Of a stretch of DNA of 64,000 nucleotides, positions 365 to 45,221 are shown in pieces. Under the pieces are notes generated by a model. That model ran no database searches. It was not told the DNA's origin and saw only the letters and a list, made by a program, of their open reading frames with translations. The stretch lies in the NCBI GenBank assembly GCA_964016885.1, contig OZ024752.1, positions 1,984,001 through 2,048,000 of the forward strand, given 5' to 3'. The number at the start of each line of letters is the position of its first letter. Position 1 is the stretch's first letter. Made by a program: the position numbers and the translations under genes. This stretch comes from Eledone cirrhosa. Its lineage: Eukaryota.

Positions 365-2117
365 AATCATAGGATCTGTTGACACACGTTGAATGGTGGA
401 TGGATTCGAATCATTATTTATCAGCATTCCAATATTCCCACCCAATATTAAGCTATAATATTCCGCATTGCTTTTGTCCTGCGAGATATCGATTGATTTG
501 ATATTAAATATATTACGATATTTGCCTGTTTTTATATAGAGTAACCTGCAATGAGACCCTTTATGGTTCCAAACAGATCATGTGATATAAAAAAAATTGT
601 TTGTTGAAACGTGTTTCTGATTTTTCATCACTGGGGTTTCTGGCCAATAATTGGATCTTGCATATAAATGGTTGGATTTGGCATCATGCTATCATACATA
701 TCTAGTATTATAAAGATATGTGTTTTGTCATGTTACATAATTTCCATCTATTGCAGTTCATCATAGAAGATTTCGATCTTTTTTATAATCTCCATCATAA
801 TTTGCTTTCTCTTTTTATAGTCCGTACTTCATATTATGATGATTCACTTTTCACAGAAATGTTCAATGGAAATATGCAATAGTTAAGAGTTCATTTATAA
901 AGATCAATCCTTATTTCTATTCGATATCGAATGGAGTTGGTTTCTCGTGAGCTTTAACCCACACTTAGTAAGTTATTTGGCATCTAGAAGATTAGATAAA
1001 GACATATGCAAACTATTCTGTGCATGTCTAGATTCCTCAATTTTCTCTTCAAATGCTTTATGTTTCTAATTTCCCGTTTTTCATAGATACCCTAGCTTTT
1101 GTTGTATCACTCTTTCTCGTTTTCATTCACGATAGCTTTATATCTTTCCCCTGCCTCTCTTTGCCTACATTTGTCCCAAACTGATCTTTCGAATCCCGGA
1201 TACATATCATCTCACTTCGTTTTAAGCTGCCTGCTTGCCTTCAATTTTAATATTCACCTGATATATATACGGTTTATCCTTCTGCGGTATTTTATACATT
1301 GTGTTCACCGATCAAATATATATTTGCCTAGGTCTATGTTAATCATAATTATATCAAGTTATTCGTCAACCTATCACTTTCTTTTATTCATCAATCCATG
1401 TATTGCTTTTCATGTTAGCTTACTCTCTGTTCTACTTAACCCTGCTCTACTCATTGTTTTTTCATATACGTCGTGTCCCTTTATTTAACACACTTTATAT
1501 GATTTCCTATTACATATATACCCAACAACAAACACTCTCTCATCAATTCTCACGCTCTTTCTCACAGATTCTACCTCTCTTTATATTTACATTTCTTCTA
1601 TATTTGCTTGTTTAATATATTTCCTTCATTATATTATCATTTCATACATCCCTTTCTTTCTCCGTCTTCATTCACCCTATCAAGATTATTACATAAGTTA
1701 TTAGATGTAAGTAAACACGGCCGAGTGTTTAAAGTACTTCCTATTTGATCTAAACTGGTCACAGGTTTAATCTCACAGTTACGTGTCATTTGAAACATAA
1801 TTTTACCATATTTACATGTCTATATATGTTATATTCTGTATAAATTGTGGAGACGTAAAATATATAAAGCCCGTAAGACTTATTTGTTACAAAGATCCAA
1901 ACATATTTCATATTGTGACACATTGATTCCGTTTGAGAATTACTTTAGCTGTAGAGGCGTCTGTGGGGCATTCAAGTACATAAGCAATAATTCCAATCAG
2001 TTGATCAAACAACAATTTCAACCAACGAAATTTACAAAGATTCACCCACTGTATTCAATATATATATTAATAACAGATCGGGGGCCATATTCAGTTCGTT
2101 CAATTTTAATTAAAAAA

Positions 2118-2177
2118 GCTGTTATACATATTTCACTGAGCACTATCAATTATGATAGCCTGAGCTCTTCAGACGGC
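2118..2177 (-). ncRNA. Type I hammerhead ribozyme, probably in a PLE pseudo-LTR remnant
   Basis: Minus strand reads gccgt-CTGAAGA-gctcaggctatcataattgatagtgctcagt-GAAA-tatgta-TA-acagc. Core intact, stem I has one mismatch, stem II has a ctatca/tgatag hairpin, stem III is near-palindromic. Confidence 0.65.
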
Positions 2178-5100
2178 AAAACCTAAAATAAACATAGAAG
2201 GTTCCTGAGAAAACTTTAAATTTTGAAAGAATCTAATAATTTCCCTGTTCTCTTAACCCCTTACTCTCTCTCACCCGCTCTCTCTCTCTGTTCACCCTCT
2301 ATCACCCTCTCTCTCTATCTCTCTCAATAGGAAATTGAACTGAAAATTGATATATATATATAATCTTTCAATTTTCAGTTAAATTTCTTATTTATCAAAC
2401 AAAATTCAGTATATTTCTCACTTAATCACAAGTCTGACCCCATCACCCTAATCGTTTCTCTATCTATCTCACGCATACTTTCTCTGTCTCTCTATTTATT
2501 TCTCAATCTCTCTCTCTCTCACTCACTTACTATCTAGCTGATTGGTCTCCCTCTGAGTGACGTTTTCCAGTTAATTCAGCTAGGGATTAGATGGGCAATT
2601 CTAAACAGTTCACATATTAGAAAATGGTGTTCCTGGTTTAGAAGTGGGCTTAGCAAAGCTTTACATCCTGGTTAGGCATCCTTGGTCGTTTATTGATGCC
2701 AATTAATTATCGCCATGTGAATGTTCCCTCAAATAACTAATGCAAATCATTTGCAGTCAAGCGTTCCACGTGAAAGTTATAGCCGCTATCATGGAATAGT
2801 CAAATTTAGTAGCATCTGCTAATATATAATGACATATTACATCTTCTCAGCAAGCACCCGCCAAATCTCCCATCTTCGTAATTAACTAAGCGCCGAATCA
2901 ATACGACAGAGGATTGAATCTTGTTTCCTGATCATGAATCTATTTACAGTTTCCCACGCATTCAGCCGTTGATGTGTGAAATTTAAATCGGTAATTGGTG
3001 ACTGAATAACTACTTGACGTGGTACCTCACTGTTCGTAAGCTAAAGTTCTCAGTATATGATCCCATATTGTACTTGATCAGATACTTTATTTTATGGGTT
3101 TCAGTGCATGTATGAATTGAAATCTTTCAGTTAATCTCTTATCTTTGAAACAATTCATAATAGCGTAACGTGACTAAAGAAGATACATACAACATATATT
3201 AGAAATGTCGCTATAATTTACTTATGATATTATGTTATTAAGATACTGTTATATCAAATATAATGATGTTCTATGCATCATGCTTCCATACTCATCAATA
3301 TTATGTTGGATTTTAATCATAAATACTGATACACATTGAAACAATAAATTTCAATTGGTGTCTTATCTCAAGATAAACATAACTGATACTGAATTGCGCA
3401 AAAAAGTACATGAAATAAACAATCTCTGAAATACCAATTCACCAAGAAAAGCAAATCACTCAAAGAAAGTACATACATATAATCTACCTGTTTACAATCT
3501 GGGGATACATAATTTTACAAATAATGTATTTTATTCTCTTGTATAATCGATATCGGAGTTTACTATCAACATACTAGATACACCTCTTTTTTTTATTTCA
3601 CTTAGTCATTTTAACACACGTAACTTTCAATTCATTTTTTCAATCCTTGAAATCAAATATGCAAATTACTTGTCCATTATTACTTCATGCTTAAAGAAAC
3701 AAGTAGGTGTTCTCCTGGGGATAATGGATTTTGGAGAAAACGATAAAACATATTATAAAGAGGCGTATATTGTATAGATACACAAATAGGTGGAAGATTG
3801 ATTGGCAGAAATAGAATGTAAATGAGAAATACTCAGCTGTCAACAAACAGCCAAATGGTTAGTGGACTATACGAACATAGAAAAGAGAGAGTGAATGAAA
3901 AAATTATATTGTAAGAGAAAACAGGTGGAAAACGAACGGTACTGTATTACATTTGAGGACGGAATTAGCAATGTAAAAGAGAAAATGACACATAGAGTAA
4001 CAGTAAATGACAGAGAGAGATGAGTGAGAAAGAGAACTGATGTAGAAAAAAAGAGAAGAAATATCAAAACAAACAGCAAGCTATAGAGATAGGGAAAAGA
4101 AGGCGAGCGGATGAGAAGGGATCATGTATTATCGAAGTTGGGGCAGATGTGAGAACATACAGGCATAGACTTTGATTGAGTGTAAAAGATAGGAAAAATG
4201 TAAAACAAAAATAACGACGGCAACATATAGGCAGTTATGAAGCGCACAAATAAAGAATATGTCGATGTATCACTGGGAATATGGGACAGTTGATAGACGA
4301 AAAAGAAGTGAAAATAACTGAACGAAGACAAATTGGAAACAGGAACTACACAGCAAGTTTTCAGGCAAGTAGATGTACAATTGTTCAACATATCTTAAAA
4401 CTACGCTGGTTACTTTATGCCAGTAGAGGATTCTTTTTATCTCTCAAAAAATGCACCGGATCACATTGATGTCTTCTCCCATAATCCTTCATATAGCCAC
4501 AAGGCTTTTGTTGTTTTATTTTCATTTTTATTTTCGAATAACACATATTTCCTTTCAGAATTTTATCATCTGAGGAGGTGTTTAATTCAGTTATTCTATT
4601 CTGTCAAATTACTTCACAGATAAATAATTAAAATATAGTGGCAGAAAAATACATGAAGCATAATTACACTCACACTAGAACGTAATATACATTCTACGAG
4701 GTTATTTTACATGTAAGCACAACTAAGAATACAGAAATTCCTATCTGAACGTTTTCAAAAGGACGTTGTTAATGATGTTAATCTTGGTACCGCACTTTTG
4801 AAAGAAAGGAAATTTGATATTGATAGAATTCCAGTAATCATATGATTCTCAATAGGACTGCTTATTAAGCAAAAAACTTATTTCAAGTACGGAAATGGGG
4901 GAAGCCACTTACAAAAACGGTAACAACGGCATAAATATATCATTGATGCTGTTGTCACCGAATTTTCCTTAAATGGATCATAAAACCAGTGACGTACACG
5001 TTATACCATGTCTACTTGAGGCTGGCTGTCGCGACTTGAATTTGAGTGCTGAGTTAGCCTACTAAGGGAAACATGCTGCAGGCAAAACCGAGCTCTATGG

Positions 5101-8179: not shown

Positions 8180-8182
<3 letters not shown>

Positions 8183-8306
8183 CGAAGGAGATGTGGTAAG
8201 GAAACAGATGGACCATAACGCACCAAAGTACTCAATACTTAGGGTAGTAGAGTCCAGAATTAGCCGTCGAAACGGCTTGAGCTCAGCCGTCGGGGTCCTG
8301 CTCGTT

Positions 8307-8310
<4 letters not shown>
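8180..8310 (+). mobile_element. Family B short repeat in (TA)n, single-arm (deleted) form
   Basis: Shares ggaccataacgcaccaaagtactc and agccgtcgaaacggcttgagctc with 51218-51417, 53906-54103 and 57961-58085. Confidence 0.8.
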
Positions 8311-8352: not shown

Positions 8353-8357
<5 letters not shown>

Positions 8358-8571
8358 GTTTAAGCAAAGAATCGCTGCTTCCAAACTTAAGGGTTCTTAT
8401 CCCGTTGGGGGGGGAAAAAGGCGATTATTTGCTTAACATCAATTATTTTAATAAGTATTTGCTCTAGGGTTCTTATATATTTGATTCATATTAATCGTTT
8501 CGAGCCCTGTTTGCAATTTAGTCTTCACATATATTATCATTACTATATATATATACATATATATATATATT

Positions 8572-8657
<86 letters not shown>

Positions 8658-8822
8658 TAACAGATTAAAGTTCATGAAAGAATCGCTGCTTTCACACTTA
8701 ACGGATTTCCTGAAACTAAAAGAAAAAATCAATATTTGCACTAGGGTTCTTATATATTTGACATATATTTATCTGTTTCGAGCCCTCTTTGGATTTTAGT
8801 CTTCACATTTATTATTATCACT
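8353..8822. repeat. Two copies of family E short repeat separated by (TA)n
   Basis: aaagaatcgctgctt...tagggttcttatatatttga...gtttcgagccct...tagtcttcacat occurs at 8353-8542 and 8651-8822; related to 14780-14965 and 28873-28960. Confidence 0.75.
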
Positions 8823-8830
8823 ATACACAT

Positions 8831-8866
<36 letters not shown>

Positions 8867-8877
8867 TATTATTATTG

Positions 8878-9570
8878 CTCTGAAATAGCGATGTATATAT
8901 GAGTGTATATATAGTATATTTAATGATATAGTATGTGTTTAATTAAAAACATGAATTTTAAAGTAGTCACTTACATATTCTCGGCAAAAACGAAGGGGAG
9001 TAATCGACAGTCCAGTTTCTCTCTAGTCAGCGGTTACCAAAATTACTTAACCCTTCACTTCTGCCGAGAGATATAGAAGGTGGATTCTTATAGAATTCAA
9101 GTAATATTTAACAGCTGATTAAAATGACCGGAATTCTATAAGTAATCTATAAGTCCTCGGACACAAAAATAATCGAGTGGATGGTAAAAAGCTAGCGCGG
9201 ACTAAATTCCAAGCCATTGAAAATTTCACTGCTTTCATGGTCAGTGGCAAATTTAGTCCGCGCTCGCTTTTTTCCACCGACTGAATTATATTTGTATTGG
9301 ATCCCTGTGTCTGCGCATCGCCAGGAATCTTAGCCGAGAATGACCCCCCTGATGAAGAAAGGATTATCCATTGTCTCCATGTGGAGACTATGTATATCAC
9401 CTTTCAGAAACTAATTAGTTGGAGTGAAATTTAAGTAAATGAGTTAATTACTATAATTTTATTATTTTACGTATTTTATATAATTGTTCTACATCTCTTT
9501 GTATTAAACCACAGAGTTACAAAGGCAAAACCTATATCTCAGCTACTGTAAGTATACATCTGTATAAATA
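8878..9570. mobile_element. Structured non-coding element, divergent relative of the 312-bp HHR repeat, with HHR-like motifs on both strands
   Basis: Shares gctctgaaatagcgat, tgttt..aaacat, attctcg..aaaa..aaggg.agtaatc and cttatagaat with the 43753-44376 unit. Embedded between (TA)n tracts. Confidence 0.6.
9344..9425 (+). ncRNA. Type I hammerhead ribozyme with extended stem II and weak stem I
   Basis: ccccc-CTGATGA-a-gaaagg...gtctcca/tggagac...cctttc-a-GAAAC-taatta-GTT-ggagt. Stem III is the palindrome ACTAATTAGT. Confidence 0.55.
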
Positions 9571-9595
9571 TGTTGGTAGATATACTAATTATTTA

Positions 9596-9642
<47 letters not shown>

Positions 9643-9734
9643 GTATATATATATATAGGTATATATATATATATATATATATAGGTATAGGTATATATAT
9701 ATATATATATAGGTATATATATATATATATATAT

Positions 9735-9771
<37 letters not shown>

Positions 9772-9781
9772 TATATAGGTA

Positions 9782-9850
<69 letters not shown>

Positions 9851-9865
9851 GTATATATATATATG

Positions 9866-9896
<31 letters not shown>

Positions 9897-9898
9897 GT

Positions 9899-9926
<28 letters not shown>

Positions 9927-9929
<3 letters not shown>

Positions 9930-10529
9930 TCAGGTCACCAGTTGGTGCTACTGGTAACATGTATCCCAGTACAACCTGTCTCATGGTCGGGACGTTGGCG
10001 ACTAAACTGGCAACCCCACCAAGGTTTCTTGGTGAGGAGGGTTACTTTGGACATCCTGCAGGACTAAAAACAAAACCTGTCAAAGGGCAAAGGAGCTCTT
10101 AAGAGTCAATGGCCATCCAAAATCACCGGGAGAGATGACCCCTTAGCCTTTGTCAAGGCAGAATTCTAGGAGAAGGAAAACTCTGATATAACACCTGCAA
10201 CCCTGATGGTATCCAATGATGTTGACTTGTTCTTCTTTTTGGTAAATATCATCTTGGTTAAGAGAGTGGGACTGGCTTTGTGCAGTGCCTTTGCTCACTA
10301 TAAAAGCTTCACGGCACAGGCATTGCTTTATATCTGGAGATCTCTCTGCACTTGTCCTCACATGGTACCAGCACTATGTGTCAATAATTGTCACAAGTGT
10401 AGTGTTTGTACCAGAGTTTTCAAGTCGCTGGCTGGACTAAGAAGTCACACTCGTTCAGCGCATCGGTAGGGGTTCTCCTACATGGATATAAAGTAGTGGC
10501 CGTACTCGAAAACGAGTTGGCAGCCACCA

Positions 10530-11296: not shown

Positions 11297-11327
11297 GAGG
11301 ATGGCTCTGAACATTATATATACATGT

Positions 11328-11358
<31 letters not shown>

Positions 11359-11359
11359 T

Positions 11360-11700
11360 GAGGATGGCTCTGAACATTAATCAGTATACACTGAGGATGA
11401 AAAACTCAGAGCTGTATGGGAGCATCCCAAAAGTCAGCTCAAAAGTGACACAGAGGAGACTGAGGTTGGATGGACATGTTCACCGACATCCAGAGTTGAC
11501 ATTGCACTCAGTGCTCCTTTGGGAGCCCCTACATGGACACACTAGAAGAGGAAGACCAAGGTTAACATATGTTGATGCCCTAAGGACAGACACTGGTCTG
11601 TTGGAGATGCAGGATATGGCAGCGATAATGAGGGACAGAGACCGCTGGAGAGAACTCGTCCATGGATCTCGGGAATTTTACCCGCCTTAGATAGATAGAT
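11360..11700 (+). mobile_element. 5'-truncated RTE-clade LINE 3' end
   Basis: RMALNINQ...[14 protein letters not shown]...[21 protein letters not shown]...DRDRWRE, stop, then an (AGAT)n tail. Near-identical to 13258-13585. Confidence 0.9.
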
Positions 11701-11701
11701 G

Positions 11702-11797
<96 letters not shown>

Positions 11798-11803
11798 TAT
11801 TTG

Positions 11804-11836
<33 letters not shown>

Positions 11837-11943
11837 ATATGCATATATATATATATATGTATGTATATATATATATATATATATGTATGTATATATATAT
11901 ATTTATATATATATATGTACATATATATATATATATATGTATG

Positions 11944-11974
<31 letters not shown>

Positions 11975-11979
11975 GTATG

Positions 11980-12010
<31 letters not shown>

Positions 12011-12143
12011 ATGTATGTATATATATATATATATATGTATGTATATATATATATGTATGTATATATATATATATATATGTATGTATATATATATATATAT
12101 GTATGTATATATATATATATGTATGTATATATATATATGTATG

Positions 12144-12176
<33 letters not shown>

Positions 12177-12197
12177 ATATATATATATATATGTATG

Positions 12198-12262
<65 letters not shown>

Positions 12263-12267
12263 GTATG

Positions 12268-12304
<37 letters not shown>

Positions 12305-12331
12305 GTATGTATATATATATATATATGTATG

Positions 12332-12362
<31 letters not shown>

Positions 12363-12381
12363 ATATATATATATATGTATG

Positions 12382-12445
<64 letters not shown>

Positions 12446-12473
12446 TATGTATGTATATATATATATATGTATG

Positions 12474-12508
<35 letters not shown>

Positions 12509-12513
12509 GTATG

Positions 12514-12546
<33 letters not shown>

Positions 12547-12622
12547 GTATGTATATATATATATATGTGTATATATATATATGTATGTATATATATATAT
12601 GTGTATATATATATATGTATGT

Positions 12623-12653
<31 letters not shown>

Positions 12654-12668
12654 TATGTATGTATATAT
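11701..12668. repeat. Interrupted (TA)n/(TATG) microsatellite, about 970 bp
   Basis: Directly visible. Confidence 0.95.
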
Positions 12669-13585
12669 ACTGGCTGGAGTGCTCCAGGGAGATACATTGG
12701 CTCCCTACCTTTTTATCATCGTAGTGGACTATTGTATGCGCCTTGCACTGGAGAAACACCAGGACTCTGGCTTTACTGTAGCACCGGCTCAGAGCAGGAG
12801 AGTTAAGGCGAAAAGGTATCGGATGCTGAATTTGTTGACTACATAGTTTTGGTGACAAATACCATGAAGGAGGCAGCGGATTTGATGCGGGAGGTTGAGA
12901 CTGTGTCGATGAGTGTGGGGCTGAGAATTAATGAGACTAAAACAAAATATCTGGTAGAGAATGTTGAGAAGCCAGAGGGGATCACTAATGTAGGCGGAAA
13001 GCCGCTAGAATTGGTTGAGGGCTTCCTCTATTTGGGAGCAAAGATTGGGAATACGGAAGATGATGTGGTTGAGAGGAAGAGCAAGGCCTGGGCGACGTGC
13101 CACAGCTTGAGTTCGGTCTGGAAGTCGGACATTCGTAGAGACCTGAAAATCCGCCTCTTCATTGCTGTAGTGGAGTCTGTGCTGCTGTATGGGTCTGAGA
13201 CTTGGACACTGACCAAGAAACTCACTCAGATGGTGGATGGGTGCTACACGAGAATGCTGAGAATGGCTCTGAACATTAATCAGTATACACTGAGGATGAA
13301 AAACTCAGAGCTGTATGGGAGCATCCCCAAAGTCAGCTCAAAAGTGACAGAAAGGAGACTGAGGTTAGCTGGACATGCTCACCGATATCTAGAGTTGACA
13401 TTGCACTCAGTGCTCCTGTGGGAGCCCCTACATGGACACACTAGAAGAGGAAGCCAAGGTTAACGTATGTTGATGACACTGGTCTGTTGGAGACGCAGGA
13501 CATGGCAGCGATAATGAGGGACAGAGACCGCTGGAGAGAACTCGTCCATGGATCTCGGGAATTTTACCCGCCTTAGATAGATATA
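12666..13585 (+). pseudogene. 5'-truncated RTE-clade LINE: RT C-terminal half and 3' end, frameshifted
   Basis: [19 protein letters not shown], degenerate catalytic motif FVDYIVL after a frameshift, [29 protein letters not shown]; (AGAT) tail. Confidence 0.92.
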
Positions 13586-29239: not shown

Positions 29240-30729
29240 CCGTTGCATTTATCTTGCTTTATGTTCATACGAGTTATCACCAAGTCACAACAAGTGACCT
29301 CAAGAGACAACAAGGCCCGCCATGTTCAAGAAATAACATACATACACACACGTGCATCTTTAGGTGTTTAGACTTGTGATGTATTATATGATCAATGGTC
29401 TCTGGTTGTTTTTTACATACACGGCATAATGGGTTGCATCCATTTTTATTATGTTGGCTCGGTAATTTTTTGTTGGCAGACACTGATCTTGTGCTGATAT
29501 AATTAGTCCTTCAGTCTCCGATTTCAGTCCAGAGGATGCCAACCACATCAGGATTGTTAGCTATTTCTGGGTATTTTCCATACAGAGGCTTTTCTTTCCA
29601 TTTCATGTAGCAGTTCTTTCTTTGCAGTTACTTTTGCCTGCCTTGCTTTTTTCTGTTTTTCATTTCAGCAGTAAATGGAACTTCTGAAATTTGTAGTTTA
29701 TTACTGTATCTTCGTGCATCATTTGTAATGGAGTATGATCTGTTGATGCTTTCGTGTTTCAAAACGAGTTTGATCATCCAATCATGTGATTCCCTTAGAT
29801 AGTAGATAATCCAATTGTTGCAGTTTTCAACGCAATATCTAACTGGATTAACCCACGTCCTCATTCTTTCCTAGGGAGATATATTCTATCTGTATCTGCC
29901 TTAGGGTGATGCATTCTGTGCATGGTTAAGAATTTTCTAATTTTTGTATCGAGCCTACTGATCTCTGTGCTTGACCAGTTGATGACATTGTAACTGTAGG
30001 TTACTACTGGTATGGCAAGCGTGTTTATGGCATCGATCCCATTCTTTGCGTTCAATTCCGTTTTTAAGTTTGCTCATAGTCTGCGGTAACATTCCTTCTT
30101 ATCCTTTCCCTCATTGTCGAGTGCTTGAATCCGTCTCCTTCACAAACACCTAGATATTTGTAAGTTTCCTCTTGATCAAATTCTCTTATCACATTCCCCC
30201 GATCAAGATTAATGTTTGAACTGTTCAGCTGCTTTCCTCTGGTGAACGTTGCTGTGGTGCATTTATCTAGTCCAAACTCCATTTTAATGTCATCACCGAA
30301 CTGCTTCACAGTGGATAATAGCCCTTGCAATTGTTCATCATGTTTTGCAAATAGTTCCAGGTCATACATGTAGAACAAGTGATTAATGCTTTTGTCATAG
30401 ACTTTATATCCATGTTTTATTTCATTGAGCCTTTTACTTAATGGTATAAGTGCGATGCAGAATAAAAGCAGTGATAAAGAGTCACCCTGAAAAATTCCAC
30501 AATTAATATTAACTTCTCCAGCTTCCAGTGATTTTTTTTTCTCTATTTAAAAGGAGTGTCGTTTTCTTTGTCTCCATACTGAATGGCAGGAACCTCCTGA
30601 CAATCGGAGATATTTTGAAAATCTCTAAACATATATCAATCCAACTGTGTGGCAAACTATTGAATGCTTTTTTGTAAGCTATCCAAGCAATTGATAGATT
30701 GTTGTGTCTATTATGACAATCTTCCAACA
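29240..30729 (-). pseudogene. R4/Dong-like non-LTR retrotransposon B (RT to zinc knuckle; endonuclease deleted)
   Basis: AWIAYKKAFNSLPHSW, GIFQGDSLS, INHLFYMYDLELFAK, YKYLG, AINTLAIPV, HHPKADTDRIYLPRK, CRVCKKQPETIDHII; frameshifts; (AAT)n after the 3' end. Confidence 0.88.
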
Positions 30730-30745
30730 TTATTATTATTATTAT

Positions 30746-32386
30746 TCTTTGAGTCTTGGTCATTGATGTCAGTTAACTGGACAGTTTGTTGAAATGAATA
30801 TCAAGCCACTACCTGCAGCCTCAGATATTCAAGACGTATCGGAGAGTTCTTGCTGTTCCCAGCAAGCATGCCTTTGAAGTGTTCCAAAAAGCGGGGCAGG
30901 GCCAATTTTCTTTTACCATCCCTGGAAACCTTTTAAGATAGTACCGAGTGCGCCTATGACAATCGGGACCACTTTGACTTCATGGCAGTTCCAAATCCTT
31001 TTTACCTCCCACTTTAAGTCCTGGTATCGGTTAATTTTCTCCCTCTCTTTCTTTTGCACTCTCGTGTTTGAATGGGCAGGCCACATCCACAATCAGGCAC
31101 GATCTTTTTTCCTTGTCCAAAACGAGCAGGTCAGGTCTATTGTTCCAGTTTCTTGTCCGTCTGTATCCTAAAATCCCATAGCACCTTCACCTGATCGTTT
31201 TCTAACACCGACTCTAGCTTATACTCATAGCACTTCTCAGAATGTGGTAAATTGTTTACTTTGCACAGGTGCCAGTGGATCAACCTGTCCATCACATCAT
31301 GTCTCCAGCCTTTATAGTGAGTCTGGGCTAGGAGTTTACACTCGGATACAATGTGAGCCACAGTCTCCTCTCTCTCTCTCCACAGATCATGCACAGTGGG
31401 CTAGCCTCCTCCTTATAAATATGGTGTTTCAGCCACTTCGTTTTGAGGGCCTGCTCTTGCGCAGCCATTAGCATTCCTTCTGTAGCCTTTTTAAGGTCTC
31501 CTCTTCTCAACCAGTTCCATGTCTGTGGATCTCTGAATTCCGTTTTCTCAAATAAGGTACTATGAAGGGATTTTTCATGAAGGTTGCTCTTTCTCCTCGT
31601 TGTTATATCCTCCTTGGACATCCCCTGGTCTATTGTCCTCTCCATCAGTACAATTCTAAGTATTGGCTCCTTACTATCGGTCACGTATTTGTGTAGGTTG
31701 TTTTTCTCCATCTGAACACAGTCCTCTATGCTGATAAGACCTCTTCCACATTCAGATCTCCTTAAGTAGAGTCTATCGATATCACTCCTCTTGTGGAGCA
31801 TATTGTAGATAGTCAATAGCTTCCTAGTCTTCCTATACATTTCTTTTTGTTCAGCAACATTCCATCTCAGAATTCCCGCACTATACATAATAATAGACAC
31901 ATCTCTGGAATTTCCTGCACTTATGGCATTCCTACTGTTCAGATGTGACTTTAATACGCTCCTTACTCTCCGAATGTATTCAGATCTTATCAATTCCTTC
32001 ATTGTTTTGTTCTTGATGTCATCAGCCTCCAGAATACCCAAATACTTGTATCCTTCTTCAGTGTCAATTTCCTTTATCATCTCACCTGTTGGTACCTGGA
32101 TTCCGTTGCTTCTGCTCAAGTTACCCCTCGTCTTCACAAGGACTCCACGCTTACTAATACCAAATTGCATACATATATCATTGATGAAAATACGGACAGT
32201 GTCAACAAGCACATCCAACTCCTGCTCACTCTTCCCGAAGAGCTTAAGATCGTCCATGAAGAGGAGGTGATTGATGGTAAGCTCTCCCTTTCCCAACTTG
32301 TATCCTGCTCTCACTTTTCGCAGTATAATGGTCAGGGGCATCAGGGCAAGGACAAACAACAGAGGGGACAGACTATCTCCCTGGAA

Positions 32387-32387
<1 letters not shown>
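30746..32387 (-). pseudogene. R4/Dong-like non-LTR retrotransposon A, 5'-truncated (RT C-half, CCHC, RLE endonuclease, 3'UTR)
   Basis: GDSLSPLLFVL, INHLLFMDDLKLF, YKYLG, DRLYLRRSECGRGL, AAQEQAL, ETVAHIVSEC...RHD, LWDFRIQTD, PDL, VVPIVIGALG; (TAA)n on both sides. Confidence 0.92.
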
Positions 32388-32440
<53 letters not shown>

Positions 32441-32640
32441 GGGCGGTGGATTGGCAGTATCGGTAGAGGGTCGGATGCCATGCTTTGCAGCAAAGAGTTA
32501 CGGCCCTTTATGGTCTGAGTTCAAATCCCGCCGATGTTAACTTTGCCTTTCATCCTTACGGGGTCGATAAAATAAAGGACCAGTAATACACTGGGATAAT
32601 TGCTGGCCTTGTGCCAAAAGCAGAAACAATTTTTATTATT
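32441..32640 (+). mobile_element. tRNA-derived SINE
   Basis: Full consensus with A box tggcagtatcggt and B box gttcaaatcc. Confidence 0.93.
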
Positions 32641-33271: not shown

Positions 33272-34580
33272 ATGGCTTCTCACAGGATACGTAGCATAAA
33301 TGCACGTGGCCTGGGGTCGTCTTGGAAGCAACGCCACCTGCTCAACGATCTCACGTCGCTAAACATAGATATGATGGCTATGAGCGAGACAAGAATCTCC
33401 GGGGCACGGGCATTCACACCCATCTCCAAGCCGTCCCTATTCTGAGGGAGTGGTGTGTGTTCCGGAGATGTCTGGATCTCGCCGTCTTCTTGGACCCAGT
33501 AGGTAAGTTGATGGTGCTGGACGTGACCAGCGGAGAAGGGCAAGCTTTCAGGTTAGTGGCCCACTATGCACCAACAGGAGCAAGGCGGCCTGACTCCTTC
33601 CCGTATCTGGAGAACTTTCTTGGAGGTCCCGCTCTTTAGTGTTAGTGGGCGACTGGAACGGGATCTTAGATGCACACCGGGATTAGCGGATAGGGTAGGA
33701 GTGTGTAAAAGCCTTGCAAACATGCTCAGACGTTTTCAACTGTCTGACAGGTGGCGTTTGGTTTTCCCGAATGTGCCAATGTGGACTTGGACAAACTGTA
33801 TCGAGTCATCCAGGTAATATCCTGATAGGGTATTTTGTAGCGAAATGTATAGGTCTAGCATAGGCTGACCACAACTTCATGATTTGTGTGGTTGACTTAG
33901 ATAGGCTTCATAGACAGGGACCCGGCTACTGGAAGCTAAACGCGTCGGTAACAGCGCGTTAAGCTTATAGAGACCGGATTAGCGAATTAGTTAAGCGGGC
34001 ATTGATGGGGGCCATCGTCAACAACAAATGGTGTTTTGCCCAGAAAAGAGCGATTAAATAGGTTTAGTAAGGCGTTAGCAATAGAGAAAAATAGAGCAGA
34101 GAGAGAACTAGTTAGCAAATTAGACGAAGCGCATAGTAAAGGCATCAGGACCGACGTGCTTGCAGCGAAAATGGCCCTCGACGAATCTTTCAACGCAAAG
34201 CACGAAGGCTGCATTGTCAGAGCTAGGGCACGTGCTCTCAGACACGAGGGGACGAAAGCCGTTCAATGGGCCCAGCTCTGTGAATGGAGGAGCTGTGGCG
34301 CTGTTGAGAAAGGATCCGAACAAGGAGGATAACATAGATAATTTGAGGCCCATAACTCTGCTAAACCAGAGTTCAAGATGTTTGCCAAGGTGCTAGCAAA
34401 GCGCCATTCCAGAGAGATCTATCCAAAACAACCTCCACCTCTTGCGATACATCATGGAGAGGATAGTTAGGGAACCTGGCACAGATGGGTACTTGATCAA
34501 TTTAGATCAGTCGAAAGCTTTCGATGGGGTCAACCATCGTTACCTGGCGGCAGTCCTAAGGGCGGATCTCTGCCATGCAC
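33272..34580 (+). pseudogene. Tx1/L1-like LINE ORF2 copy 1 (APE endonuclease, RT with internal deletions)
   Basis: SINARGL, MSET, HYAPT, GDWN, DRWR, GPGYWKLNAS, LRPITLLN, LDQSKAFDGVNHRYL. Confidence 0.88.
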
Positions 34581-37044
34581 GGCCGGATTTTTAGACGCCT
34601 GGAAACATTCTACGTACGTCTTGCTGTTTACTGTTAGCGGGAGACTGGAACGGCATCTTAGACGCACGCTGGGACTATGTGGGTGTAACCGAACTGGACA
34701 AATAGTTTAGTGACATTACATAGGTTTCAAATTAGATTAGTGGTAAAGGATAGTATAGGGTGTCCACAATTACATACGGTCGCCTATTCGGATCACAAGT
34801 CTGTGACCTGTATGGTCGACCGAGATAAATCGCGTAGATAAGGAGCTGGTTACTGGAAGCTGAACATGTCGTTTCCGGCATGTAAGGCTTACAGGGACCG
34901 GGTCATCATTTAATTAAGAAAGAGTTGACAGGGAGAGACGTTAACAATAAATATCGGGGGGGGGGGGGCTCTCAAAAGAGAGATTAGAGAAATGTCAATA
35001 AGGTTTAGTAAAGAAGTAGCGTTATAGAAAATAGGTGGAGCTGGTAGATAAGTTAGACGAGGCTATTTGCTGTTGCATTGCAACTGGCCTTCTAGCGGTG
35101 AGAATGACATTACATCATTTCTTCAATGCGAAACACGAAGGTTGCATTGTCAGAGCTAAGGCGCGTGCTCTGAGAAACGAGGGAACGAAAGCTGTTCGAT
35201 AGGCCCGCGTGGGAGAGGCACAGCGTGGTAACTAAACCACAATTCGGTCTTTGACGAGCGAGACGGACATGAGCTGAGCGATACCAAGCGTATGTGTGAG
35301 GCCCTTCACCAACATTTTGCTCGGCTGTTCGAGGGAAGTGACGGTTCAGAGGCGGTGGCAGAGTTCAGTCCCTACCTCGATGGCTTGCCGCAACTCTTGA
35401 TAGCCGACCCTGAGCGCTGCGAAAGGCCGATTACTTTAGCCGAAATTCAGGATGACCATCTCGGCTGCACGAGGCGCAAGTCACCCGATTTGGATGGTCT
35501 TCCCTACGAGCTTTACGTAAATATGCCAGACTTGTTCTCCGAACTCCGCGAAACACTCTACTGCAATTGGCAGCAGAACGGGCGTATTCCCAGTTCTGTG
35601 AGCCGGGGCGTAGTGATGTTGATAAGGTAAGACGAGAACAAGAGGGACACATTAAACACTTTTTGGCCCATAACTTTTTTCAACATAGAGTTTAAGATTT
35701 TGGCTAAGGTTTTAGCGAAGAGGTTGGCGCTCGTTGTGGATGATTTTGTTGAAGGGGCGTCGACTTGCGCAATCCTGACCAGGTCCATACACGGCAACAT
35801 CCACTTGATGAGATACATCATGAATAGGCTAGTGTGTAAAACAGGCTTCGGTGGGGCTCTGATCAATTTAAATCAATCGAAAGCATTCGATAGTGTCGAC
35901 CTTCGGTACCTGAGGCTGTCCTCAAGCAGCTGACTTCGGCCCTGCCTTCAGAAGTTAGATCGCTGTAATGCACAGCGGCATCTGCTCGGTGCTCAAGTTA
36001 ATGGCCACCTCACTTAACCGTTTCAGATCTCACGATCCCTCCGTCAAGGGTGCCATCTCTCCACCCTTCTGTACGTATTGACTCTTGAACATTTACTGTG
36101 GAAGCTGGAGCTGTTGCGGGGACGCGGAAAGGCTGTGTCGGCTTATGCGGACGACATCACCGTGATAGCGTCAGACACATCGGAAACTGAGGGAGTCAGC
36201 AACTTATTGGAGGGATATGAAATGTTGACGGGAGCAAAACTTAACCAGGTAAAGTCAGTGGGCTTTCAACTCGGCACCTGCAGAGGCAATCTATGCCAGT
36301 GTAGTTGGGAGCAGGAGGGACCAGACCTCCGGGTGGATAAAAATTGGGTCGAGGTGACGAGCAGGGTAGCCAGTCTCACTCAGAAATGGGCTGCGAGGAA
36401 GCTATCACTGAAAGCTCGTGTGAAGGTGGCGAACGGGTACATTGAGTCCGTCATCTACTACCACCTGACCTTCGTCCCTTGCCCCCGTTCGCGCCTCGGC
36501 AACTTGGAACGGCTCATCTTCAAATTCTTGTGGAGGAGACAGGTTCCGTTGGTGAGGCGGTCCATCTGCTGCCAGCACCCTGTACGTGAAAGGCTGGGCA
36601 TGCCGTGGCTAATGAGGGGCAGACATGCGCTGAGGCTGCGGCATCTCCAGATATTTTACCTAAACGGTGAACAGCTGGGGTCGCCGTTTGTCAGACGGGC
36701 CTTTCCGCAGCTCGTCTCTCAAGAAGAGACCGAGACTGGGTGACCGGCATCTGAAATGTTACCAGGCACTCACTTCCCTCTATCATGTGGTCAATGGGGT
36801 CAGGAGAACTTCCAATATCGAGTTCTGTAGAGGATTAGTGGTGAGAAGTGCGACGACGCACTTGGAGAGGTGCTGGGCGTCGACGAAGTCGAATAAACAA
36901 GTCTGTTCCGTAAGACTTTCGAGCCGGGGAGGATGGATAATTTTCAAAATTCCTTAGCTTGGCAGTGCCACCGGGGGGCACTGCCAGTTTGCGATAAACC
37001 CTACAGGAACGGAAGTGCTGTCATCAGACGGACCTGTCCGATAC

Positions 37045-37080: not shown

Positions 37081-37206
37081 TTATGTTTCTGAGTGGTGTC
37101 GGAGGTCACAGCAGTTATAATGTTACCCAATACGTAGGTAGGGTATATACGTAGTATATACATACATTACTTCTACAGGAGGAGAACTCTCTCATTCGTG
37201 GGAAAC

Positions 37207-37251
37207 GTACCTGATGATTTCATACGATTGAAGGAAAGGGGGACTTCGTAC
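37207..37251 (+). ncRNA. Type I hammerhead ribozyme
   Basis: gtac-CTGATGA-t-ttca-tacgat-tgaa-g-GAAA-gggggac-TTC-gtac; 4-bp stem I; 3-bp stem III with a GGGA loop. Confidence 0.65.
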
Positions 37252-38415
37252 ACGGCCCCATTTCCATGGCCCTCAACGGCAAATACTAGTACCATAGATT
37301 ATGATGACGTATCTAGGAAGCGTTCGTAATAATTGTACAACTCATTTTCCTATAGTGACACATATACCATGGTATATAGTCAAGGAAAAAATTGAATTTG
37401 AAGAGAACATCTACCTTGTGTTGTTATATAATGAGAACCCTATTCAAGTCGCTTAACACATTCTTTAGTTCAATCTTATTAAAGTTTCTTCTGACATAGG
37501 TACAGTAATATGACAATGAAGTGCTGGATATAATTAATTTGAATTTTCTCACAAACCTTTAATATATTAAACAGTGTTGTGTATATCCCACACAATCATT
37601 AATTGGAGGGGATACCTTGACTGGCAAAGGAAAAGGAGTGAAACGCCAGCACACGTACGTTATCCTTTGGACACAGATTATCGAACAGCTGCATATCTTC
37701 TAATATATTGAATGTTAGAGTCATGATATCTGACTGGGATATGGTGGTCGGAACGTTTAGCATCAACTCAAAATGTACAGAAGGGTGGGGTGGACAGCTA
37801 TCTGCATAGGATGCAAGTGTAGAAAATCTGTAATATTTTGATAGTTTTAATTTCCATATATCAGAATGTATTGCAATATAGAGTATCCAGTAGTAAAATA
37901 AATTCTACAGGCAAAGAAGATGAAAATAAAAATAAAAACAAGTGTCAAAAAACAAAGGAAATTAAACATCGTAAAGGAAGAAAATAGGTAAAGAATGGTG
38001 CTATATACCTTGTGTGCACGTTGTTAAAGTTGCGCCCCACGGACACATTGGCACACTGTGATACCATAGAGAGTAGCAAGTGACACGTTCCTCTACAGCT
38101 GCTTCACCTTATGGGGCTCCTTATTCGTACAAAAATGCTTGAGGACTCTCTGGTGACCGGTATGAACATAATTCGGTAACCATGGCATATAACCATGTAC
38201 AATATGTTCGTGTTGTCGGTTGTCATGTTCAGAAACTGATTTATTTTCCAACTGAATAACAAAGCAACTATCAATATCTCATTTATTTGATATTATAATG
38301 TGGGATATGTTACCATTTAAAAATAGATCAAATGTGAAGTTACATTAAAATAATCCAGTGCAATTATATTATAAGAACCGTTGGAAAATGGTGCAGGCAC
38401 TATATACTATATCAA

Positions 38416-39998: not shown

Positions 39999-40063
39999 TA
40001 TTTCATTATATATATTTCAGGGATACCAAATTAAAATATGGTATGCCTTCATCAGACAAAATA
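39999..40063 (-). ncRNA. Type I hammerhead ribozyme in the inverted pseudo-LTR of PLE-1
   Basis: tattttgt-CTGATGA-aggcatacca...tggtatccct-GAAA-tatata-TA-atgaaata; 8-bp stem I with 2 GU pairs; palindromic stem III. Confidence 0.8.
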
Positions 40064-40369
40064 CAATATATAAACAGTTTTATAAATAATTTTGACGTAC
40101 CCTATTAGATGCAACCATTATTTTTGGAAGCTGTATGGATAGTGAGATGTTTATAATTATTTTATTAGTTATAGTGTTAAGCACAGTTAGAAAAAGACGG
40201 AGAGAAAGAAAAAAACGGAGAGAGTGAAGGAGAGAGTGAAAAAGAAAACCTGGAGAAATACCGGAGAGAGAGAGGAGTGTATGCAAAAAAGAAAGATATA
40301 AATAGATAGGAGGAAATGAAAAAGAAAGAAAAAAGGAAGAAATAAGAAAAACAAAAGGTAACGGACCTT

Positions 40370-41592
40370 GTGGGCCTATTTATAATTAATTCGCTACATA
40401 GAAAAATACCAGGGGTAACCGGAGGATTATATCGTGATGACATGCTTTTACTTATTGAAAATAATAGCTGTGAACTAAATAGAAAAAGAAAACAAATTAT
40501 ACAATTTTTTAATTACCTTAATCTAAAAATAGAAACAGAGAATAACAATAGAATAGTCAATTTTCTGCATGTAACACTAAATCTCAACACATGTCTGCAT
40601 TATCCATTTCACAAACTAAATGAGAACTTGAATTATGTCAATTTTAACTCTAATCACCCCAGATCTGTTAAAAATACTATAGTGAACTATGTTCAAGAAC
40701 GAATTTCAAGAATTTCATCTAATAAAAATATTTTTGATGAAAAAGCGCAGTATTACAATGAAGCGTTAGCTAGAGCAGGATATAGAGCTAAAATTAAATA
40801 CATCGATAATAATAATAAGCAAACTAACGAAAATAATAACAATTTTAATTACGGTAACAACTTTAACAACTATAATAGAAAACATTACAATAATTCCAAA
40901 AGCCGAAAAAGAAATAGAACTAGAAATATATTATGATTTGCCCCCCCTCCTTCTCACTAAATATTAAAACCCATATTGCTAAACTATTCTTTAATGCTCT
41001 TGACAAACGCTTCCCTAGAACACATAAATATCACTCAATTTTTAATAGACACACTATAAAATTAACTTACTCGTCCACCAAAAATTTAGTACAAAATATT
41101 AACAGAATTAATAATAGGAATTTAAAACCTAACCAAAATACGAATAATAACCCAAACAATATTCAATTAAATAACTGTAACTGTAGAAATAAATCTAACT
41201 GTCCGTTAAATAACAACTGCTTAGTGTACAATTGTAATGTTAAAACTAATTTAAATTCTTTCAACTATGTTGGTTCCACCTCGACAGAATTTAAACTTCG
41301 CTTCAATAATCATAAGAATTCTTTCACAGATCCAAACAAAAAATCCTCAACTTCGCTATCTAGCCTACTCTGGCACCTTAAACGAGATAATGTTAAATAT
41401 TCGATGATTTGGAATATTGTCTCAAAAGGTACTCCTTTTAATTCCTCTTCAGAGAGTTGTGATCTTTGTATAGAAGAAATATTCTTTATATTAAAGTCCA
41501 AAAATTCCCTTAATTTAAGGAGCAATTTATTCAGTTGCTGCAGGCATAGATTGAACTCAACGTTTAAATATAAATATAAATTTAAAATGTAG
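40370..41592 (+). pseudogene. PLE-1 RT C-terminus and GIY-YIG endonuclease (possibly Hydra clade), disrupted at about 40935
   Basis: GLYRDD, VNFLHVTLNL, SNHP, IFNRHTIKLTYS, CNCRNKSNCPL..C, VY...YVGST..FKLRFNNH, CDLCIEE, LNLRS...CRH. Confidence 0.9.
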
Positions 41593-43138
41593 TATAATTA
41601 ATTAAGAAATTTAGTTAATATATGAAACCTGACGATAAATCATTAGATTCCTTCACCTTTTTCTTTTTAAACTTTCTTCCTAAATATAAACAAGGATATA
41701 ATAAACTTCTCTAAAATGTATATGCTCCCAATGTATTAAATAAAATTTACGTAAGATAAATTTCTATACTAACTATAAGGGCATCCGTAGAATCACTGGG
41801 TCTTCTAAATCTTTTAAATTATTTTTAATTTTTTATTTGTTTTTGACTCCGATAGTTTCATATGTCTACCCTTGCAATATCTTGTTTGAGATATAGGTAG
41901 GATAGATTTCTATAATAAATATATAAAACATATTATTTTAACTTGAGATACTCTATAGTGTTTTAAAGATATTTAATGCTTTGATATTTCTATATTAATA
42001 TATTGATATTTGATTATCTCTATACAAAGGCCATATATGTGTATTAACATGCATATAAAAGGTTTATAGGGTTTATTTATGTGTTCGTATATATGTCTGT
42101 ATAAATGCATAACGATGCTGGAAAACTCACGCAGATATTTATTTATACATATGTATGTGTATGTATGGTTGTGTGTGTATATGTTGATCTGTATTGCAGA
42201 TATGCACAATATTAAATACATGAATGGTAATCATATATATGAGGACATGAATATTAATCGTATGTTTATGTATATATACTGTGAATTTTTTATAACACAA
42301 GAAATGTATAGAAGTAATCAAGTGAAACCATTTGTGTGTCTATATTATTGACTGGAGTAGACATAATTTCTCTTTTTTCAGGACGTACATATGCGTGTAT
42401 ATATATATATACATATGTGTATCCGTATTTTTATAAAGAGGGTATTTTTTGAAGGTTTTAACTCAGATTTTGGTATATTGACCTCAAGGTTTTAAACTAA
42501 ACATATGGTCATTATTGAAAAATGTTATTTTCTCATATTATATATCTATGTCCCATTCATGAATATTGATATTTACATTTTTATTATTCATTTCATATGA
42601 ATTGTTAACTCAACTTAATATGACATGACGTAAAGTTGTCACTATATCCTCCTCTCTCTATATAGTATTTCCTCTCTCTTGAGTTTCTCTATCTGTATGA
42701 TGAATTAATATCTCTCTGTTGCTTTCTTTTGTTTTTCTTATTTCTTCCTTTTTTCTTTCTTTTTCATTTCTTCAATATGTATAATGAAATAAATATGGTT
42801 TTATAAATATAGTTTCCATTTATTTAATATCGTATATCTACTCCAAAAACTTGTCGAGTGCTTTATATCAGTTATAAAATATTTACTTGTTGTATCCCAA
42901 CAATTTTAAATAGAACTTTTGCATATATATATATATTAGAGATACAAATCTGTCGTTATATTTAGTTACTAAAAATCTTTTTTTAGTGGCGAGCTATAGA
43001 CGGCGAGTCTACGATTTCCCGCCTTCACTATACACCAATGTATTTACGGGTCACTTTCACGACCTTTTAGACCTGTATTAGTTGCAGTGAGGTCATATAT
43101 TTTGTCGTTCCTGGGGTTTTTAACCCTAGGACAGGAAA

Positions 43139-43224
43139 ATGCTTCTCTGATGATCGTTGCTTTTCCATTAATATCCTGGTGATATTTAATGTTTTGCAGC
43201 GTGAAACTGTACAGTTAGGGGCAT
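43139..43224 (+). ncRNA. Type I hammerhead ribozyme with long stem II
   Basis: atgcttct-CTGATGA-t-cgttgc...cattaatatc/gatatttaatg...gcagcg-t-GAAAC-tgtaca-GTT-aggggcat; 8-bp stem I; palindromic ACTGTACAGT. Confidence 0.82.
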
Positions 43225-43752: not shown

Positions 43753-43795
43753 GTAATCTACGCGTTTCATTCTTATTAGAAATCATCAGGATTAC
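43753..43795 (-). ncRNA. Minimal type I hammerhead ribozyme (unit 1)
   Basis: gtaatc-CTGATGA-t-ttct-aata-agaa-t-GAAAC-gc-GTA-gattac. Confidence 0.88.
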
Positions 43796-44064
43796 ATATC
43801 CAATGCTTTTATCGAGAACGACACAGCTAGAGACTTATAGAATACTTAGCTGTGTACAGGAACTGGTTTGAAAGAGCGGTAGCCGGTCCGGCAGAAATTA
43901 GAATTTGGATTTAATGCTCTGAAATAGCGATATATATGTGAAGACAAACATAGAATATTCGAAAATATTCTGTATGTTTATAATAAACATTTTGAAGACC
44001 CAATCGCTATAGAATAGAATACGTCACGTATTACAATTTGAGATTCTCGATAAAAGCAAGGGAA

Positions 44065-44107
44065 GTAATCTACGCGTTTCATTCTTATTAGAAATCATCA
44101 GGATTAC
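44065..44107 (-). ncRNA. Minimal type I hammerhead ribozyme (unit 2)
   Basis: Identical to 43753-43795. Confidence 0.88.
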
Positions 44108-44618
44108 ATATCCAATGCTTTTATCGAGAACGACACAGCTAGAGACTTATACAATACTTAGCTGTGTACATGAACTGGTTTGAAAGAGCGGTAGCCGGTC
44201 CGGCAGAAATTAGAATTTGGATTTAATGCTCTGAAATAGCGATATATATGTGAAGACAAACATAGAATATTCGAAAATATTCTGTATGTTTATAATAAAC
44301 ATTTTGAAGACCCAATCGCTATAGAATAGAATACGTCACGTATTACAATTTGAGATTCTCGATAAAAGCAAGGGAATACGTAATACGTGACGTATTCTAT
44401 TCTATAGCGATTGGGTCTTCAAAATGTTTATTATAAACATACAGAATATTTTCGAATATTCTATGTTTGTCTTCACATATATATCGCTATTTCAGAGCAT
44501 TAAATCCAAATTCTAATTTCTGCCGGACCGGCAACCGTTCTTTCAAACCAGTTCCTGTACACAGCTAAGTATTCTATAAGTCTCTAGCTGTGTCATTCTC
44601 GATAAAAGCATTGGATAT

Positions 44619-44661
44619 GTAATCCTGATGATTTCTAATAAGAATGAAACGCGTAGATTAC
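44619..44661 (+). ncRNA. Minimal type I hammerhead ribozyme (inverted unit)
   Basis: gtaatcCTGATGAtttctaataagaatGAAACgcGTAgattac read directly on the plus strand. Confidence 0.88.
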
Positions 44662-44823
44662 TTCCCTTGCTTTTATCGAGAATCTCAAATTGTAATACGT
44701 GACGTATTCTATTCTATAACGATTGGGTCTTCAAAATGTTTATTATAAACATACAGAATATTTTCGAATATTCTATGTTTGTCTTCACATATATATCGCT
44801 ATTTCAGAGCATTAAATCCAAAT

Positions 44824-44936
<113 letters not shown>

Positions 44937-45176: not shown

Positions 45177-45221
45177 AGTCATAGTCCTTTCGTCACACAC
45201 TCTGTGACCTCTTCAGTGACT
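45177..45221 (-). ncRNA. Minimal type I hammerhead in the PLE-2 pseudo-LTR
   Basis: agtca-CTGAAGA-g-gtcaca-gagtg-tgtgac-GAAA-gga-CTA-tgact. Confidence 0.78.

What the first reader, a model, noticed from the sequence alone, without database searches (positions are those of the whole stretch)
8878..9570. Divergent relative of the 312-bp unit with a covarying stem and HHR-like motifs in both polarities
Seen: 8878-9090 is colinear with the 312-bp unit. The closing stem changed on both sides (tctcgATa/tATcgaga becomes tctcgGCa/tGCcgaga), which indicates selection on RNA structure. At the homologous position the minus strand has a variant HHR (9000-9037: gtaaccg-CTGACTA-gaga-GAAAC-tggact-GTC-gattac). 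About 300 nt away the plus strand has a canonical-core HHR (9344-9425). Known: ribozymes in both polarities characterise symmetric rolling-circle RNAs, whereas PLE pseudo-LTRs normally carry sense HHRs. Inference: either an ambisense ribozyme element or a fusion of two pseudo-LTR fragments.
Basis: partly seen in the sequence, partly recalled or inferred. Interest (0 to 1): 0.72.

Follow-up and report, generated by a model that had tools for sequence, protein, structure and literature searches.

The report
Two unrelated retrozymes joined back-to-back
This is a decayed spot where copies of two unrelated, abundant ribozyme-carrying repeats sit back to back in a TA repeat, likely left by two separate insertions driven by Penelope-type jumping genes, so it is an ordinary junction and not a two-strand self-cutting replicon.

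Summary
Not an ambisense element. 8866-9131 (minus, family A, kin of the 312-bp unit, 71% identical) and 9161-9594 (family B, ~530-bp unit, 2,004 exact 28-mer hits) are separate high-copy repeat families. The junction is unique among 40 scored candidates, and 0 of 235 near-full units carry an antisense hammerhead. The left ribozyme was misread. Its core is UUGAUAA, the known U3-A8 variant (21 of 21 pattern hits); 'CUGACUA' is stem II plus loop. This copy has a private A6G and stem mismatches; B's core is intact but its stem I is damaged. Opposite polarity comes from how these repeats insert in (TA)n: two arms facing outward, one long end and one short end (37 of 39 same-family inserts), the Penelope footprint. 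Here both outer ends are long and there are two inversion centres. That favours two neighbouring insertions whose inner arms were lost (0.6) over one event on two RNAs (0.3). Side result: U3-A8 subfamilies are predicted to block their own core by a covarying helix. Earlier scan notes report the two-armed layout and U3-A8 elsewhere in this genome.

The parts
8835..8865 (.). Left (TA)n tract, insertion target
8866..9131 (-). Family A arm (about 318-bp retrozyme-type unit, positions 27-325 of the unit); its long 3' end abuts the left (TA)n
8978..9070 (-). Closing stem plus hammerhead domain of A; compensatory changes against the 312-bp unit
8999..9047 (-). Type I hammerhead, U3-A8 variant: stem I 9047-9041/9005-8999, core 9040-9034 with private A6G at 9037, stem II 9033-9030/9023-9020, GAAAC 9019-9015, GUC 9008-9006; likely inactive in this copy
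9127..9160 (+). Short inverted piece of A (remnant inner arm or fold-back), ending at the start of the closing stem
9161..9252 (-). Inverted piece of family B (unit positions 146-236), joined to the A piece with no TA between
9248..9594 (+). Family B arm (about 530-bp unit, positions 191-535); 5-nt overlap with the inverted piece; its long 3' end abuts the right (TA)n
9344..9428 (+). Type I hammerhead of B: canonical core 9349-9355, long stem II 9356-9406 opened by a family-wide A.A mismatch, palindromic stem III, GUU 9418-9420; stem I keeps 3 of 5 pairs in this copy
9590..9926 (.). Right (TA)n tract

Best explanation
The stretch is a head-to-head joint between single decayed copies of two unrelated, high-copy hammerhead repeat families, and it likely arose from two separate Penelope-driven insertions into one TA tract whose facing arms were then lost. 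Shown: the two families, their strand, their ends and the state of each motif. Inferred mechanism: each family's RNA is reverse-transcribed by a Penelope-like (PLE) RT/GIY-YIG protein onto both ends of a cut in (TA)n, starting at two fixed sites, which gives two arms with 3' ends facing outward. An A insert and a B insert landed side by side. About 200 nt of A's inner arm, the TA between and about 190 nt of B's inner arm were lost at the second insertion or later. Each ribozyme serves only its own family's RNA (predicted: cutting tandem transcripts to unit length, as a dimer through the palindromic stem III). This locus has one damaged motif per strand and so would not release a monomer.
For: Independence: 1,651 and 3,975 first-look candidates for the halves; 2,004 exact B 28-mers; no other copy crosses 9131 among 40 scored of 81 candidates; B has no real similarity to A, P or U; antisense hammerhead in 0 of 235 near-full units (A 42, P 39, B 49, U 105). 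Insertion rule: same-family two-arm inserts with TA at both ends have one long and one short end in B 12 of 12, P 7 of 7 and U 18 of 20 (two further A-type rows, L056 and L071, had non-standard ends and were left out), and in 17 of 18 in a position-ordered sample of 40 B loci (read by eye). Cross-family joints without TA follow the rule in 3 of 6 (Fisher p 0.013); the window and L010 are long+long. The window has two inversion centres, one per family. Crowding is common: 13 of 40 B loci have another family within about 650 bp across TA, and 4 of 22 two-arm B inserts have lost one end. Literature: inverted copies with a tail at one end and microsatellite targets (PMC8557442, PMC3846280), two RT start sites and extension of both strands (PMC11167929), opposite-strand hammerheads 100-700 bp apart (PMC4209133).
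Against: Arm ages match in some joints, as one event would give: L214 B arm 6 of 335 against PLE arm 7 of 354. In the window both arms lie in the oldest tail of their families, with near-private changes 12 of 247 and 15 of 340; distance to the local majority differs (29 of 262 against 21 of 340, p 0.037), but A subfamilies are thinly sampled. Three of six joints are long+short. Both A-lineage/B joints break at the same homologous A position, which is unexplained. The mobilising PLE was not identified. No cleavage or RNA data.
Confidence: 0.6

Rival explanations
1. One insertion event on two different RNAs: PLE enzymes primed family A RNA on the left DNA end and family B RNA on the right end, with fold-backs and a template jump, and the two cDNAs were joined by microhomology.
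For: No TA at the joint; 5-nt overlap at the B inversion; similar no-TA joints of B with P (L010), E (L005, L142), G (L135) and two protein-coding PLEs (L003, L214); matched arm ages in L214 and roughly in L010; same A breakpoint in two joints.
Against: Long+long outer ends in the window and L010, never seen in 39 same-family two-arm inserts; two inversion centres; no joint of this kind with the reference hammerhead families in 40 position-ordered B loci; none recognised in the young 312-bp family; crowding plus end loss gives about the observed rate.
Confidence: 0.3
2. An ambisense ribozyme element (symmetric rolling-circle, viroid-like RNA) integrated in the genome.
For: Hammerhead motifs lie on both strands about 310 nt apart. 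One other locus (L010) has an A-lineage arm and B in the same outward polarity.
Against: The composite is single-copy and not tandem. L010 has another subfamily, junction and spacing, and its minus-strand hammerhead is partly deleted. 0 of 235 units have an antisense motif. One cut site per strand cannot release a monomer. Both motifs are damaged here.
Confidence: 0.02
3. Both halves are solo pseudo-LTRs of autonomous PLEs not yet found, rather than self-standing retrozymes; the joint arose as in the best explanation.
For: Tail and inverted layout are PLE features; B's long stem II with an extra nucleotide after A9 resembles PLE minimal hammerheads (PMC4209133); Xenopus retrozymes are related to pLTRs (bioRxiv 10.64898/2026.07.22.740005).
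Against: Units occur as full head-to-tail tandems (13 B units in L031). No RT/EN frame runs into A, P, B or U in 221 fetched loci except L214, and 19 of 19 other copies of that endonuclease have a different 3' end. Only two PLE proteins were used as probes.
Confidence: 0.08

Closest known systems
Metazoan non-LTR retrozymes (Cervera and de la Pena 2020, PMC7229834; Li, Clavereau and Pollet 2026, bioRxiv 10.64898/2026.07.22.740005)
   Same: Short AT-rich non-coding tandem units with one type I hammerhead per unit, many families per genome, PLE proposed as mobiliser.
   Different: This locus is a two-family joint with damaged motifs. Family A has a U3-A8 core and a C.A mismatch at 10.1-11.1. Expression, cleavage and circles are untested here.
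PLE pseudo-LTR insertions (Penelope/Poseidon, Neptune; PMC3846280, PMC8557442, PMC11167929)
   Same: Head-to-head inverted copies, tail on one end only, AT-rich targets, palindromes at inversion joints, two RT start sites.
   Different: No ORF and no parent PLE found; B's tail is 112 nt, longer than the 30-40 nt described.
Schistosoma Cercyon PLE hammerheads (PMC4209133) and natural core variants (PMC3088659)
   Same: U3-A8 covariation; opposite-strand motif pairs 100-700 bp apart; a mismatch at 10.1-11.1 (U.U) is known in nature.
   Different: Family A has canonical-size stems with a 6-nt loop 2 and a longer stem III; the core flips between C3-G8 and U3-A8 among six related subfamilies.
[quoted passage not shown]
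   Same: Only the presence of motifs on both strands.
   Different: The motifs belong to different units; no monomer holds both; single genomic copy.

Membership tests
Symmetric rolling-circle viroid-like RNA | Ribozyme in both polarities of the same monomer | tested here: not met
   0 of 235 near-full units have an antisense motif
Symmetric rolling-circle viroid-like RNA | The two-ribozyme unit recurs as a unit (multimer or dispersed copies at fixed spacing) | tested here: not met
   junction unique among 40 scored candidates; L010 differs in subfamily, junction and spacing
Symmetric rolling-circle viroid-like RNA | Circular RNA of both polarities in cells | not testable with these tools
   no RNA holder listed
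Metazoan non-LTR retrozyme | Short head-to-tail tandem unit | tested here: met
   A about 318 bp, B about 530 bp, arrays up to 13 units; met by the families, not by this single-copy locus
Metazoan non-LTR retrozyme | Type I hammerhead in each unit, sense strand | tested here: met
   descriptor passes in A 20 of 42, P 33 of 39, B 34 of 49, U 97 of 105 units; covariation
Metazoan non-LTR retrozyme | No protein-coding frame | tested here: met
   no frame of 100 aa in 8866-9584
Metazoan non-LTR retrozyme | Two consecutive complete hammerheads at the locus (Li et al.'s 'active' copy) | tested here: not met
   one damaged motif per strand
Metazoan non-LTR retrozyme | Self-cleavage and circular RNA | not testable with these tools
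   no assay; 5' ends of arms not enriched at the cut site for A, P or U, weakly for B (3 of 58, p 0.05)
PLE pseudo-LTR | Flanks an RT/GIY-YIG reading frame | tested here: inconclusive
   none found in 221 loci with two probes; L214 is a one-off chimera
PLE pseudo-LTR | Inverted head-to-head insertion with a tail on one end only | tested here: met
   37 of 39 and 17 of 18 same-family two-arm inserts
PLE pseudo-LTR | AT-rich or microsatellite target | tested here: met
   3' ends abut (TA)n in most loci

The most novel reading that the evidence does not exclude
The joint records one Penelope-type integration in which two unrelated retrozyme RNAs were copied onto the two ends of a single DNA break. 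Similar joints of family B with four other partners, including two protein-coding PLEs, would then show that one enzyme system serves unrelated families and would name its helpers. In addition, the U3-A8 subfamilies would carry a built-in off-switch: the core pairs with the stem III arm in the monomer and is freed only on dimer pairing.
Probability: 0.3. Interest if true: 0.55.

Novelty: new member of a known kind. Interest (0 to 1): 0.27.

Why it matters
As a locus it matters little: it is a dead junction. It is a useful warning that hammerheads on both strands in animal genomes come routinely from Penelope-type two-armed insertion and crowding in TA repeats, not from viroid-like replication. 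Two by-products are testable. Cross-family joints could reveal which PLE moves which retrozyme and whether one integration can use two RNAs. The predicted self-blocking helix bears on a question left open in PMC7229834, namely how animal retrozyme circles avoid cutting themselves. U3-A8 families with a 10.1-11.1 mismatch are also missed by canonical motif searches.

Tried and rejected
Rfam scans found no hammerhead, only TA-repeat artefacts. Reading the A core as CUAACGA (G5A) was my own first misreading; the cross-subfamily alignment removed it. L214, an endonuclease frame running into B, was tested as B's parent PLE and rejected: 19 of 19 other copies have another 3' end. An apparent age gap in L214 (7 of 354 against 27 of 332) vanished once B subfamilies were allowed for, so distances to a global majority are not used as ages. 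Enrichment of arm 5' ends at the ribozyme cut site: none for A (0 of 46), P (0 of 48) or U (2 of 66); B 3 of 58, p 0.05, also explained by stalling at structure. No RNA holder listed; the one run, contigs of unknown kind, added nothing usable. The first A divergence run was swamped by 312-bp copies and redone. The sigma-70 scan is not applicable and was at chance level. Similarity of A, B or U to the 3' ends of the two PLEs in the window: nothing better than E 0.02. No covariance model was built; own-genome searches return only the 40 best candidates.

Full report
Setting. The window lies on contig C12 of a 3.0-Gb animal genome and is rich in (TA)n tracts and broken retroelements. I call it U. 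It is a very young family: the best matches are 99-100% identical.

Check of the observation. 8876-9123 aligns with U at 159 of 224 letters, far above 200 shuffles. The closing stem has the double changes described; they are the majority state of the family. The plus-strand motif has a canonical core at 9349-9355. The minus-strand motif was misread. In 32 aligned copies, this one included (four duplicate rows dropped), the letters after stem I are U3 30, U4 32, G5 31, A6 30, A8 30 and A9 31 of 32. A genome-wide pattern that allowed either letter at positions 3 and 8 returned 21 hits, all U3-A8. Across ten sequences from six subfamilies the 3-8 pair is U-A in 7 and C-G in 3, never unpaired; 10 of 16 pairs show changes on both sides; the covariation score is 0.535 against at most 0.115 for slid controls (the rows are related, so this is not a probability). 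Further copies confirm the subfamily states: S is U3-A8 in 11 of 11 examined (4 of the 15 fetched were tandem neighbours and were left out), Q is C3-G8 with an intact motif in 14 of 15. This copy has A6G (1 of 32), a G.A in stem II and a U.U in stem III. Changes at A6 lower activity (PMC3088659, passages), so it is likely dead or weak. B's motif keeps 3 of 5 stem I pairs here against 5 of 5 in the family. Neither passes the descriptor.

The halves are independent. The left half (family A) drew 1,651 first-look candidates and shows a 318-bp period; the right half (family B) drew 3,975 and a period near 530 bp. A 28-mer of B has 2,004 exact matches. Of the 29 other A loci, one (L035) has B nearby, about 300 bp off on the same strand. 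A query across the junction matched only up to window 9131 in every other hit (40 scored of 81 candidates). Among about 78 other B loci examined, one (L010) has an A-lineage arm joined head to head without TA, with another subfamily, junction and spacing. No unit carries an antisense hammerhead: 0 of 235.

Anatomy. Left to right: (TA)n; A on the minus strand with its 3' end at the tract; 34 nt of A on the plus strand; 92 nt of B on the minus strand; B on the plus strand to its 3' end; (TA)n. There are two inversion centres, near 9127 and 9250, and one cross-family joint at 9160/9161 with no TA.

Why the strands are opposite. All these families insert the same way: two arms with 3' ends facing outward into (TA)n, one ending at a long site and one at a short site (U 313/286, P 323/293, B 535/423). 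This held in B 12 of 12, P 7 of 7 and U 18 of 20 two-arm inserts with TA at both ends (two A-type rows with non-standard ends left out, 37 of 41 with them), and in 17 of 18 among the first 40 B loci of contig C1 (read by eye). This is the described PLE footprint: an inverted copy, a tail at one end only, microsatellite targets (PMC8557442 and PMC3846280, passages). A purified PLE protein cuts and extends both strands and starts at two sites (PMC11167929, parts 1-2 of 4). Opposite-strand hammerheads 100-700 bp apart and the U3-A8 core are both reported for Schistosoma PLEs (PMC4209133, parts 1-2 of 4). That a PLE enzyme moved A and B is inferred; the helper was not found.

How the two families came to be joined. 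For sequential insertion: the outer ends here are long+long, which no same-family insert showed; cross-family joints follow the rule in 3 of 6 (window, L010, L005 long+long; L003, L142, L135 long+short; p 0.013; L131, L024 and L214 have other layouts and were not counted; the long and short sites of partners E, G and N were read from few copies). Each family keeps its own inversion centre. 13 of 40 B loci have another family close by across TA, and 4 of 22 two-arm B inserts have lost an end. For one event: no TA at the joint; matched arm ages in L214; similar near-private change in the window's arms, 12 of 247 and 15 of 340, though distance to local majority differs (p 0.037); and the same A breakpoint in the window and L010. 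I put these at 0.6 and 0.3. That the locus is a two-family joint and not ambisense I hold at about 0.97.

Side result. In the U3-A8 subfamilies the predicted ground state pairs the end of the stem I 5' strand and U3-U4-G5 with the 5' half of stem III. It dominates in A 16 of 21, P 27 of 31 and S 11 of 11 intact domains, in Q 1 of 14 and U 0 of 45, and persists in circular folds of natural units. The five pairs are kept in 96% of cells with three sequence states. PMC7229834 (parts 2 and 4 of 6, passages) says most animal retrozyme circles are not predicted to block their ribozyme by self-pairing. This is a folding prediction on few independent lineages; in P, Q and S it could stem from a short duplication.

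Comparison and novelty. Families A and B work like metazoan non-LTR retrozymes and meet the sequence criteria; cleavage and circles are untested (PMC7229834; bioRxiv 10.64898/2026.07.22.740005, parts 1-3 of 5). Searches of the held library showed no paper on cross-family retrozyme joints or on this blocking helix; only listings were seen for most hits, no supplements were read, and subscription journals are missing. Earlier notes of this scan, looked up after my reading was written down (then), report the two-armed layout for many families of this genome and a U3-A8 family; they are unchecked and not used as support. Verdict: new members of a known kind at an ordinary decayed junction; interest 0.27.

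Noticed in passing
window 43753-44827: Two-armed array of the very young 312-bp family; U.U mismatch at 10.1-11.1; left arm ends at a non-standard place near the ribozyme.
   Followed up: partly
window 44955-46701 (-): Truncated Neptune-like PLE (GIY-YIG, Pfam E 7e-4) with its own hammerhead at 45176-45222; sits tail to tail with the 312-bp array across a TA tract. It has long and short 3' ends about 60 nt apart.
   Followed up: partly
window 40346-42840 (+): Penelope/Poseidon-like RT and endonuclease fragments (family name recalled from motifs; no Pfam hit); a hammerhead-like motif lies at 40001-40061 (-).
   Followed up: no
window 43141-43222 (+), 48105-48155 (+), 50764-50806 (+), 37205-37253 (+), 2117-2178 (-): Further type I hammerhead motifs of other repeat families, several with a mismatch at 10.1-11.1.
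   Followed up: partly
window 8182-8308, 8355-8543, 8654-8834: Three small inserts of two other TA-targeting repeat families directly left of the finding, each between TA tracts; found in 28-40 fetched loci, often as inverted pairs.
   Followed up: partly
L055:1506-1603, L155:1515-1612, L101:631-728: Predicted self-blocking helix between the catalytic core and the stem III arm in the U3-A8 subfamilies, covarying in three states.
   Followed up: partly
window 9160 and L010:1326: Both A-lineage/B joints break at the same homologous position, a few letters into the 5' arm of the closing stem.
   Followed up: partly
L003:1045-1090, L214:1336-1340, L131:1164: Family B joined without TA to protein-coding PLE fragments; possible pointers to its helper element.
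   Followed up: partly
window 52971-53064 (-): Old fragment of family B whose end lies near the short 3' site.
   Followed up: no
window 9927-10340: Young repeat (97-99% to four other fetched loci) right of the finding, unrelated to A or B.
   Followed up: no
window 11300-13460, 30064-32497, 33295-36743: Fragments of LINE-type reverse transcriptases (RVT_1 hits), one split by long TA tracts.
   Followed up: no
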